Source: Escherichia coli (GTDB taxonomy: Bacteria; Pseudomonadota; Gammaproteobacteria; Enterobacterales; Enterobacteriaceae). From it: 64,000 bases of DNA. Shown one piece after another: positions 3,051 through 3,263 of the stretch; position 1 is the first letter of the stretch; each line of letters begins with the position of its first letter. A model generated the notes under the pieces. That model worked only from the letters and a program-made list of their open reading frames with translations. It had not been told where the DNA came from and searched no databases. Position numbers and translations under genes: made by a program. Location of the stretch: the NCBI RefSeq assembly GCF_013122565.1, contig NZ_CP053258.1; one strand, 5' to 3'.

Positions 3051-3102
3051 TTTCCTGAATCAAAAAGCAGGCCAGATTGTTGACGAAGTGCGCTTTGTTC
3101 AT

Positions 3103-3199
3103 GCCGGATGCGGCGTGAACGCCTTATTCGGCCTACAAAATCATGCAAATTCAATATATTGCATAAACCACGTAGGCTTGATAAGCGTAGCGCATCAGG
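3103..3199. repeat. REP/BIME-like pair of inverted palindromic units (gccggatgcggcgtgaacgccttattcggcctac ... gtaggcttgataagcgtagcgcatcagg)
   Basis: Match to enterobacterial REP consensus, read by eye. Confidence 0.7.
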
Positions 3200-3263
3200 A
3201 AATTTTGTGTTTGTCATCAGTCTCAGGCCAGATTGAAATCTGACCTGATCACCTTACGTTAAT

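What the first reader, a model, noticed from the sequence alone, without database searches (positions are those of the whole stretch)
3061..3250. REP/BIME pair flanked by a 12-bp direct repeat at the right edge of the accessory block
caggccagattg occurs at 3068-3079 and again at 3224-3235, bracketing the two inverted REP units (3103-3199). The second copy is part of the hairpin just downstream of the glpD stop. This could be a duplication created when the accessory block or the REP pair was inserted, i.e. a junction scar.
Basis: seen in the sequence. Interest (0 to 1): 0.3.

Follow-up and report, generated by a model that had tools for sequence, protein, structure and literature searches.

The report
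BIME-1 repeat splitting the glpD terminator
The 12-base repeat is real but does not mark the edge of the accessory gene block: it is most likely the leftover of a duplication made when a common E. coli repeat element (BIME-1) landed in the terminator hairpin after glpD, and sister copies of the element show the same signature.

Summary
CAGGCCAGATTG occurs exactly at 3068-3079 and 3224-3235, on either side of a canonical 153-bp BIME-1 (y REP, IHF-site linker, z1 REP; 3072-3224). The block-junction reading fails. K-12-like genomes lack the block but keep the BIME and both copies, and their deletion breakpoint lies about 80 bp to the left. Escherichia sp. E1V33, whose upstream DNA differs from the window's, has both copies too.

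The repeat is old. Five divergent E. coli alleles carry an exact 11-mer, AGGTCAGATTG, twice. The perfect 12/12 match is specific to this window and comes from two T>C changes. The right copy is one arm of the glpD terminator hairpin. The left copy is an orphan arm next to the A-run, and it overlaps the element's own terminus TCAGATTG.

Sister BIME-1 copies support an insertion origin. At 5 of 5 polymorphic sites the empty allele has one terminator hairpin and the filled allele has hairpin-BIME-hairpin, with 17-25 nt duplicated. Seven of 27 distinct sites exceed the 99th percentile of a mismatched-flank null.

The element and locus are already known and ordinary. The hairpin-duplication signature is not predicted by current models of REP/BIME spread, and I found it in no paper I could read.

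The parts
2667..3050 (+). Last ORF of the variable block (127 aa, no NCBIfam match). Its last ~65 nt survive in K-12 as the 3' part of the yzgL remnant.
3062..3066 (.). A-run (AAAAA). On the glpD-sense strand it reads CUUUUU, the presumed U-tract of the original glpD intrinsic terminator, now separated from the hairpin by the BIME.
   Evidence: inference from the sister empty sites
3068..3079 (+). Left 12-mer CAGGCCAGATTG. It consists of 4 nt of flank (CAGG) plus the first 8 nt of the BIME-1 unit. It is an orphan copy of the terminator arm. Other alleles read TAGGTCAGATTG or TAGGTTAGATTT.
3072..3224 (+). Complete 153-bp BIME-1 unit (left flanking motif, y REP, L linker, z1 REP, right flanking motif). 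It is about 90% identical to the copies at fepA-entD and pitA-uspB.
3073..3088 (+). Left terminal inverted repeat of the unit (CAGATTGTTGACGAAG). The consensus left end and the reverse complement of the right end (3209-3224) match at 12 of 16 positions.
   Evidence: counted by hand on the consensus
3103..3136 (+). y REP in the inverted orientation, ending in CTAC.
   Evidence: REP types and sizes from PMC8266576
3137..3171 (+). L linker carrying the family's IHF-site motif (GCAAATTCAATATATTGCA at 3145-3163). The Rfam ES036/CssrF hit (3137-3179) covers this linker and runs 8 nt into the z1 REP.
   Evidence: PMC3333891
3172..3200 (+). z1 REP (29 nt), starting with GTAG.
   Evidence: PMC8266576
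3209..3224 (+). Right terminal inverted repeat of the unit (GTTTGTCATCAGTCTC).
3224..3235 (+). Right 12-mer CAGGCCAGATTG. It consists of the last base of the BIME unit, the 5' arm of the hairpin, and the first loop base.
3223..3248 (.). Terminator-type hairpin TCAGGCCAGATT-GA-AATCTGACCTGA that abuts the BIME's right end. It forms a G-U-containing stem in glpD-sense RNA and is a perfect 10-bp stem in alleles with AGGTCAGATT.
3264..4784 (-). glpD (aerobic glycerol-3-phosphate dehydrogenase). The stop codon is at 3264-3266.

Best explanation
The region holds an ordinary, ancient BIME-1 (a y-L-z1 REP doublet, also called a RIP or RIB element) sitting inside what used to be a single intrinsic terminator shared by glpD and the convergent upstream ORF. 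That terminator had an A-run, the hairpin AGGTCAGATT-GA-AATCTGACCT, and then the glpD stop.

When the element inserted, target sequence from the hairpin was duplicated on both sides of it. The right copy survives as the intact hairpin abutting the element's right terminus. The left copy survives only as one arm, AGGTCAGATTG, next to the A-run, and it is merged with the element's own left terminus TCAGATTG. The likeliest cause is slippage between the two identical 8-mers, which would have deleted the rest of a full left hairpin copy.

The ancestral repeat is the 11-mer AGGTCAGATTG. In this window's lineage two T>C changes (3068, 3072) made the left copy identical to the right over 12 nt. This could be a single short conversion patch or two separate substitutions.

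Shown: the anatomy, the allele series, independence from the block, and the hairpin-BIME-hairpin rule at sister sites. Inferred: that the glpD site was created in the same way, the collapse of the left copy, and any enzymology. One candidate mechanism is HUH-nuclease (TnpA_REP) cleavage at the hairpin foot on both strands of an extruded cruciform, followed by gap filling. Another is a replication template switch.

Functional consequence (inferred): glpD transcripts now pass a hairpin that lacks a U-tract and carry the BIME in their 3' UTR.
For: 1. The unit boundaries come from paralogues. Homology to the fepA-entD and pitA-uspB copies runs from TCAGATTG to CAGTCTC, which is window 3072-3224.
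2. Allele series at the glpD site. Strains 4973, JCH8249, E7-1N7, TUM10008 and JX21CE8 have AGGTCAGATTG on both sides. E1V33, strain 48 and O157 have AGGTCAGATTG and AGGCCAGATTG. K-12-like genomes have AGGTTAGATTT and AGGCCAGATTG.
3. The family consensus has T before CAGATTG, so C3072 in the window is derived.
4. Five of five polymorphic sister sites (pitA-uspB, artJ-rlmC, metE-ysgA, rutG-ymdF, srmB-yfiE) have one terminator hairpin in the empty allele and hairpin-BIME-1-hairpin in the filled allele. The duplicated lengths are 25, 17, 20, 22 and 23 nt.
5. Across 27 distinct BIME-1 sites, 7 have own-flank similarity above the 99th percentile of 702 mismatched flank pairs, where about 0.3 are expected. 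In those sites the repeats abut the element ends with a gap of 0-2 nt.
6. At srmB-yfiE the empty hairpin is perfect while both filled copies have decayed differently, so the empty allele cannot derive from the present filled allele by simple deletion.
7. Joining the two glpD copies recreates a hairpin followed by CUUUUU, with a stem of about -14 kcal/mol. The present sequence has no terminator-like site on either strand.
Against: No empty glpD site was found in 5,426 E. coli genomes or in the one other Escherichia lineage obtained, so the insertion at this particular site is inferred by analogy.

Only one arm is repeated here, whereas a whole hairpin is repeated at sister sites.

Eight of the eleven repeated bases on the left are the element's own terminus. 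Once the unit boundaries are applied, the K-12 allele shows no significant flank-to-flank similarity (site 0). The overlap between arm and terminus needs either a roughly 1e-3 coincidence or an unproven microhomology step.

About two thirds of BIME-1 sites show a hairpin on one side only or on neither side, so duplication is not universal or is often erased.

The known biochemistry of the related Y1 transposases predicts no target duplication (PMC3333891, PMC2817692).
Confidence: 0.62

Rival explanations
1. Junction scar of the accessory block (one of the reader's two suggested origins). The 12-mer would be a target duplication made when the 1-3050 block was inserted next to glpD.
For: The repeat lies near the right end of a region that varies between strains.
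Against: The two copies bracket only the 153-bp BIME, not the block. K-12-like genomes lack the block but have the BIME and both copies, and their breakpoint is at about 2986, inside the last ORF. That makes K-12 a deletion derivative and not an uninserted state. E1V33 and strain 48 have different upstream gene content and the same repeat. F374 has a breakpoint inside the BIME.
Confidence: 0.02
2. No duplication at all. The left copy is just the BIME-1's own terminus TCAGATTG plus three flank bases, and it happens to resemble the arm of a pre-existing terminator hairpin. The perfect 12/12 match in this window is drift.
For: Bases 3072-3079 are the family terminus. A window-wide 12-mer repeat is expected by chance. 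With the unit boundaries applied, the K-12 allele shows no significant flank similarity. The 12/12 match is confined to one lineage.
Against: An exact 11-mer repeat, with a perfect 10-bp complement in the right arm, is shared by five divergent alleles. It would require a hairpin arm to contain the 8-mer terminus and also the same three preceding bases. My estimate is about 1e-5 per site. Only this site of 27 has the terminus inside a flanking hairpin. Sister sites show that flank duplication is a real property of the family.
Confidence: 0.15
3. Secondary origin. The BIME inserted next to AAAAAGTAGG without any duplication. The right-hand hairpin was built later from the left junction sequence by a template switch or inverted duplication, or it is the remnant of a second, tandem BIME-1 unit whose body was deleted.
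For: The hairpin arms are the left-junction sequence (AGG plus TCAGATT) and its reverse complement. The 156-bp spacing equals one unit plus 3 nt. The two copies changed in concert in the window allele. Tandem REPIN units that include flanks are described in Pseudomonas (PMC3116915).
Against: It needs several events. BIME-1 elements are described as single-copy (PMC3333891). The right-hand arrangement, in which the element end abuts the 5' foot of a complete hairpin, is exactly what is seen at sister sites where the hairpin is demonstrably pre-existing target. glpD would have lacked a terminator before the hairpin arose.
Confidence: 0.1
4. The repeat is maintained by selection as a functional RNA or DNA structure. 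Both copies can pair with the arm AATCTGACCTG, which would give alternative local or BIME-enclosing stems that tune glpD 3'-end formation. Similarity would then reflect function and not history.
For: The left copy is 91-100% complementary to the right arm (pair I5; alleles). Both hairpin copies at sister sites keep their stems while their loops diverge, and srmB-yfiE shows compensatory changes. The glpD-sense RNA folds well below shuffled controls (z = -5.0).
Against: The K-12 left copy has decayed to 8/12 without loss of the locus. The minimum-free-energy fold uses the local hairpin and leaves the distal copy unpaired. Selection could maintain a repeat but does not explain how it arose. No expression data are available.
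Confidence: 0.08

Closest known systems
BIME-1 (RIP/RIB element) of E. coli: y REP, L linker with an IHF site, z1 REP
   Same: REP types, sizes and orientation, the GTAG/CTAC tetranucleotides, the conserved L linker, single copy, and an extragenic position at the 3' ends of convergent genes. It is about 90% identical over 152 bp to the copies at fepA-entD and pitA-uspB. The same copy is present in K-12-like genomes. Presence/absence polymorphism of BIME-1 among isolates is already documented (PMC1187871, citing Bachellier 1997).
   Different: Nothing about the element itself. The flanking duplication of the target terminator hairpin is not mentioned in any paper I could read.
REPIN/RAYT system (REP doublets mobilised by the Y1 HUH transposase TnpA_REP) and its IS200/IS605 relatives
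   Same: An inverted REP doublet that folds into a long hairpin, GTAG-tagged REPs, and an element bounded by sequences that contain CT dinucleotides, which TnpA_REP needs for cleavage (PMC3333891).
   Different: IS200/IS605-type single-strand peel-and-paste makes no target duplication (PMC3333891, PMC2817692). Here, and at 5 of 5 polymorphic sister sites, the element is bracketed by 11-25 nt of duplicated target. No RAYT gene lies near the locus. In E. coli it sits between yafL and fhiA (PMC3333891).
MITEs and classical DDE transposons with terminal inverted repeats and target-site duplications
   Same: Imperfect terminal inverted repeats (12 of 16), a small non-coding element, and direct repeats of target DNA on both sides.
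   Different: The duplication length is not fixed (11, 17, 20, 22, 23, 25 nt). It follows the size of the target hairpin, which points to structure-defined cuts or copying and not to a transposase-defined stagger.
Group IIC introns, which insert just after intrinsic terminator hairpins (recalled from memory: Robart, Seo and Zimmerly 2007)
   Same: The element's end abuts the 3' foot of a terminator stem-loop, so a DNA or RNA hairpin and not a sequence motif appears to define the target.
   Different: IIC introns do not duplicate the hairpin, they encode a reverse transcriptase, and they are unrelated in sequence. This comparison is from memory and was not tested here.

Membership tests
BIME-1 (RIP/RIB) | One y REP and one z1 REP in inverted orientation | tested here: met
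   y REP 3103-3136 (34 nt, ends in CTAC) and z1 REP 3172-3200 (29 nt, starts with GTAG). Published sizes are y 35 nt and z1 29 nt (PMC8266576).
BIME-1 (RIP/RIB) | Long conserved L linker carrying the IHF-site motif | tested here: met
   GCAAATTCAATATATTGCA is exact at 3145-3163. The same motif retrieved 120 metagenome loci, 108 of which passed the filter for an upstream y REP. IHF binding itself was not testable.
BIME-1 (RIP/RIB) | Single unit, not a tandem array, with conserved flanking end motifs | tested here: met
   One 153-bp unit. Both ends align to paralogues from TCAGATTGTTGACAAAG to TTTGTCATCAGTCTC.
REPIN mobilised by RAYT / IS200-IS605-like transposition | REP doublet that forms a hairpin, with GTAG-tagged REPs | tested here: met
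   In the RNA fold the y and z1 REPs pair with each other. GTAG and CTAC are present.
REPIN mobilised by RAYT / IS200-IS605-like transposition | Insertion without target-site duplication | tested here: not met
   All five polymorphic sister sites show 17-25 nt of duplicated target. Seven of 27 sites exceed the 99th percentile of the null.
REPIN mobilised by RAYT / IS200-IS605-like transposition | Cognate RAYT (tnpA_REP/yafM) gene in the same genome | not tested
   The gene lies between yafL and fhiA in E. coli (PMC3333891), outside this window.
Classical TIR transposon / MITE | Fixed-length target-site duplication | tested here: not met
   Duplicated lengths are 11, 17, 20, 22, 23 and 25 nt and track the hairpin size.
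Classical TIR transposon / MITE | Terminal inverted repeats | tested here: inconclusive
   The ends match at 12 of 16 positions in inverted orientation (consensus). They may simply be part of the overall palindromic design.
   The repeats bracket the BIME only. Both are present in block-less K-12-like genomes and in E1V33, whose upstream DNA differs from the window's.
Intrinsic (Rho-independent) terminator | GC-rich hairpin followed directly by a U-tract | tested here: not met
   The present sequence has no terminator-like site on either strand in 2900-3400. After joining the two copies, the reconstructed sequence gives a hairpin followed by CUUUUUGA, which meets the scanner's written rule. 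That reconstruction is an inference.
Rfam RF02751 ES036 (CssrF) sRNA | Covariance-model score above the gathering threshold | tested here: met
   39.4 bits against a threshold of 37.6 at 3137-3179. The match covers the BIME-1 L linker and the first 8 nt of the z1 REP, so it says nothing beyond BIME-1 membership.

The most novel reading that the evidence does not exclude
BIME-1 elements enter the genome at intrinsic-terminator hairpins and duplicate the whole hairpin. The element ends abut the hairpin feet, and the duplication (17-25 nt) is set by the structure and not by a fixed stagger. The glpD 12-mer is a decayed example.

IS200/IS605-type peel-and-paste, which is the current model for REP/BIME spread by TnpA_REP, does not predict this signature. 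It would instead point to symmetrical cleavage at the foot of the hairpin on both strands of an extruded cruciform followed by gap repair, or to a hairpin-provoked template switch. It would also mean that each insertion splits a bidirectional terminator into two half-terminators, with the BIME placed in both 3' UTRs.
Probability: 0.35. Interest if true: 0.6.

Novelty: already known. Interest (0 to 1): 0.3.

Why it matters
For this window the result is mainly a clarification. The repeat is not an island boundary, the block-less K-12 state is a deletion, and the feature is a well-known BIME-1 in the glpD 3' region.

The wider point is that the way REP/BIME elements spread is still described as unresolved (PMC8266576, PMC3333891). 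A reproducible insertion footprint, one terminator hairpin before and hairpin-BIME-hairpin after, gives a concrete target structure and concrete junctions. These could be tested with purified TnpA_REP or in genome-wide censuses.

The footprint also predicts a regulatory cost or benefit at each insertion. The hairpin is separated from its U-tract, so convergent genes read through into the BIME.

Tried and rejected
1. A synthetic empty-site query (window 2900-3079 joined to 3236-3420) against 5,426 E. coli genomes gave no single-piece match.
2. The '154 bp shorter' alleles first looked like empty sites. They are a different haplotype (E5 type, which includes ST131) with another ORF 3' end and another terminator hairpin.
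3. The one genome-contig scan, using a wobble-degenerate GlpD C-terminus pattern, returned only Escherichia sp. E1V33. That lineage also carries the BIME, so no outgroup empty site was obtained.
4. Literature. No held paper describes flanking hairpin duplication at BIME-1. The most relevant paper, Bachellier et al. 1997 in Genetics, is not held. I therefore cannot exclude that it is already described there.
5. The idea that TCAGATT..AATCTGA palindromes are a recurrent footprint was rejected. In 1.1 Mb of fetched DNA the palindrome occurs only at the glpD site and once inside a coding sequence.
6. The idea that microhomology between the element end and the target is a general rule was rejected. 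Other sites share only 0-2 nt at the junctions.
7. The katE-chbG and mog-satP sites gave no clear empty allele.

Full report
**Observation.** The 12-mer CAGGCCAGATTG is present exactly at 3068-3079 and 3224-3235, with a start-to-start spacing of 156. Between the copies lie two inverted REPs separated by a conserved linker. The right copy is the 5' arm, on the + strand, of a hairpin (3223-3234 pairing with 3237-3248) that ends 16 nt before the glpD stop codon. glpD occupies 3264-4784 on the minus strand.

On its own, an exact 12-mer direct repeat within 200 bp is not remarkable in 64 kb. Two are observed, and first-order Markov simulations give a mean of 0.7, with 51% of simulated windows having at least one. 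The second pair, at 63037/63125, lies in coding sequence. What is unusual is a 12-mer shared by the flanks of one particular element, which has a frequency of about 1.5e-4 in this window.

**What the element is.** The REPs are a y REP (3103-3136, ending in CTAC) and a z1 REP (3172-3200, starting with GTAG, 29 nt). The linker carries the family's IHF-site motif. This is the definition of BIME-1 given in PMC3333891 and PMC8266576.

Alignment with paralogous copies at fepA-entD and pitA-uspB shows that the repeated unit is 153 bp. It runs from (T)CAGATTGTTGACAAAG to TTTGTCATCAGTCTC, which is window 3072-3224. The last 8 bases of the left copy are the element's own left terminus, and the first base of the right copy is the element's last base. 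An Rfam hit to ES036/CssrF (3137-3179) covers the linker and the first 8 nt of the z1 REP.

**Not a block junction.** The DNA between glgP and glpD varies between strains.

| Genome type | Upstream content | State at the junction |
|---|---|---|
| Strain 48 | pstS-like gene plus two hypothetical ORFs | BIME and both copies |
| E5 | fimbrial genes plus a YbbD-family gene and two ORFs | different haplotype, no BIME, another terminator hairpin |
| K-12-like | only yzgL | BIME and both copies, left copy degenerate |
| Escherichia sp. E1V33 | DNA left of window 2414 does not match the window's | BIME and both copies |
| F374 | fimbrial block | breakpoint inside the BIME, only the right copy |

In K-12-like genomes homology to the window resumes at about 2986, inside the last block ORF and 80 bp left of the left 12-mer. 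K-12 is therefore a deletion derivative that still carries the BIME and both copies (left TAGGTTAGATTT, right CAGGCCAGATTG). E1V33 is about 95% identical to the window from 2414 onward. No block boundary coincides with the repeat pair.

**The repeat is old, and the perfect match is recent.** Across ten alleles the left and right copies read as follows.

| Allele(s) | Left copy | Right copy |
|---|---|---|
| 4973, JCH8249, E7-1N7, TUM10008, JX21CE8 | TAGGTCAGATTG | CAGGTCAGATTG |
| E1V33, strain 48, O157 | TAGGTCAGATTG | CAGGCCAGATTG |
| K-12-like | TAGGTTAGATTT | CAGGCCAGATTG |
| MLI114 | TAGGTTAGATTT | CAGACCAGATCG |
| this window | CAGGCCAGATTG | CAGGCCAGATTG |

The first group has an exact 11-mer repeat and a perfect 10-bp hairpin. 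The ancestral repeat is therefore AGGTCAGATTG, present twice. The family consensus has T before CAGATTG, so C3072 in the window is derived. No complete E. coli genome shares a 28-mer with window 3020-3100. The window's 12/12 match results from two T>C changes (3068, 3072), both towards the right copy. This may be one short conversion patch or two substitutions in a region that differs by about 5% from its nearest relatives. I cannot tell which.

**Is it a scar of BIME insertion?** No empty glpD site exists in 5,426 E. coli genomes, so I looked at sister elements. A metagenome scan with the linker motif gave 120 loci, which collapse to 27 distinct BIME-1 sites.

I compared each site's 45-nt left flank with its own right flank, and used all 702 mismatched flank pairs as the null. 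Seven sites exceed the 99th percentile, where about 0.3 are expected, and nine exceed the 95th. In those sites the repeat is a GC-rich hairpin of 17-25 nt that abuts both element ends with a gap of 0-2 nt.

Five of these sites are polymorphic in E. coli or between E. coli and a metagenome allele: pitA-uspB, artJ-rlmC, metE-ysgA, rutG-ymdF and srmB-yfiE. In all five the empty allele has one terminator hairpin, with an A-run on one side and a T-run on the other. The filled allele has hairpin, BIME-1, hairpin.

At srmB-yfiE the empty hairpin is perfect while the two copies in the filled allele have decayed differently. The empty allele therefore cannot be a simple deletion product of the present filled allele, and insertion is the derived state.

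The remaining sites have a hairpin on one side only or on neither. The nudE-mrcA copy in this window, at about 42790-42925, is an example.

**The glpD site read in that light.** The right side is typical, with the element end abutting the 5' foot of a complete hairpin. The left side is atypical. Only one arm is present, directly after the A-run, and it coincides with the element's own terminus TCAGATTG.

The simplest history has three steps. There was a single bidirectional terminator, AAAAAG-T-AGGTCAGATT-GA-AATCTGACCT. A BIME-1 inserted with hairpin duplication. The left copy then collapsed by slippage between the arm's TCAGATTG and the element's TCAGATTG. The hairpin's other arm, AATCTGA, can pair with either 8-mer, which would favour slippage.

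The weak point is that this hairpin has to contain the element's terminal 8-mer. Only this site of 27 does. That is either a coincidence of about 1e-3 per site or a sign of microhomology-guided joining. The other sites share only 0-2 nt at their junctions, so microhomology is not general.

**Consequence for expression (inferred).** On glpD-sense RNA the intact hairpin is no longer followed by a U-tract. The orphan arm plus CUUUUUGAUU lies beyond the BIME. The scanner finds no terminator-like site on either strand in 2900-3400. Joining the two copies restores a hairpin followed by CUUUUU. glpD transcripts should therefore carry the BIME in their 3' UTR.

**Comparison with what is known.** The element is a textbook BIME-1 at a locus also present in K-12, and BIME-1 presence/absence among isolates is documented (PMC1187871). 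What I did not find in any readable paper is the duplication of the target hairpin. The related IS200/IS605 transposases make no target duplication (PMC3333891, PMC2817692), and the mechanism of REP/BIME dissemination is stated to be unresolved (PMC8266576).

The variable duplication length, which follows the hairpin size, also differs from a classical transposase stagger. One model that fits the junctions is cleavage at the 5' foot of the extruded hairpin on both strands, joining of the element's 3' ends, and gap filling. A hairpin-provoked template switch is an alternative. Both are inference. The key older paper (Bachellier et al. 1997) could not be read, so prior description cannot be excluded.

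**Verdict.**
- The block-scar interpretation is rejected.
- The REP-insertion-scar interpretation is supported by analogy, with confidence about 0.6.
- As a feature of this window it is ordinary and already known.
- The family-wide hairpin-duplication footprint is a modestly interesting lead on an open question.

Noticed in passing
L005:3960-4210 (E. coli F374), corresponding to window ~3090: A fimbrial gene block is joined to the glpD region by a breakpoint inside the BIME-1's left part. Homology starts at GCGCTTTGT. The left repeat copy and the element's left terminus are missing, and the right copy CAGGTCAGATTG is kept. This is a rearrangement end lying inside a BIME.
   Followed up: partly
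window ~2986; L002:3789-4010 (yzgL): K-12's yzgL pseudogene is a fusion of the 5' end of a pstS-like gene with the last ~65 nt of the variable block's final ORF. The block-less state is therefore a deletion of about 3 kb and not the ancestral state.
   Followed up: partly
L003:4061-4240 (E. coli E5; same type in ST131): An alternative haplotype downstream of glpD has no BIME, a longer 3' end on the upstream ORF, and a different terminator hairpin (GCCCGGTTG-CACTTCA-CAACCGGGC). It resembles an empty site by length (about 154 bp shorter) but is not one.
   Followed up: yes
window 3137-3179: The Rfam ES036/CssrF sRNA model scores above its gathering threshold (39.4 against 37.6 bits). The match covers the BIME-1 L linker and the first 8 nt of the z1 REP, so that Rfam family probably matches any BIME-1 whose linker is intact. 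A sub-threshold naRNA4 hit lies on the y REP.
   Followed up: no
window ~42790-42925 (minus strand): A second, more diverged BIME-1 lies between convergent nudE and mrcA. The mrcA terminator hairpin (AAAAAGGCG-CTTCGA-CGCCTTTT) abuts its left terminus CAGTTTGCTGACAAAG. Its right flanking motif is degraded and there is no second hairpin copy.
   Followed up: partly
window 63037-63048 and 63125-63136: This is the only other exact 12-mer direct repeat within 200 bp in the window (AAAAGCGCGGTG). It lies in what reads as coding sequence and is consistent with the chance expectation of about 0.7 per window.
   Followed up: partly
L135:245-560 (E. coli J-8, artJ-rlmC): A third allele at a polymorphic BIME-1 site has a BIME-1 about 90% identical to the common one, sitting after the single hairpin. 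The right hairpin copy and 24 nt of flank are absent. This is either an independent insertion or a later deletion.
   Followed up: no
BIME-1 consensus ends (window 3072-3079 and 3218-3224): Both 3' ends of the element carry TCT within 1-3 nt of the boundary (top strand ...CAGTCTC, bottom strand ...CAATCTGA). TnpA_REP requires a C^T dinucleotide for cleavage (PMC3333891), so these may be its cut sites.
   Followed up: no
window 162-2448: The three large ORFs of the block (235, 262 and 258 aa) and the 127-aa last ORF have no NCBIfam match above threshold. There is only a weak PRK09781 hit on the first. Related genomes annotate the homologues as a YbbD-family protein plus hypothetical proteins.
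   Followed up: no
Genome-contig scan: A wobble-degenerate pattern for the GlpD C-terminus returned only Escherichia sp. E1V33, although the K-12 sequence as I recall it should match the pattern. The collection or its index seems to miss expected genomes, so an absence in that scan should not be over-read.
   Followed up: no
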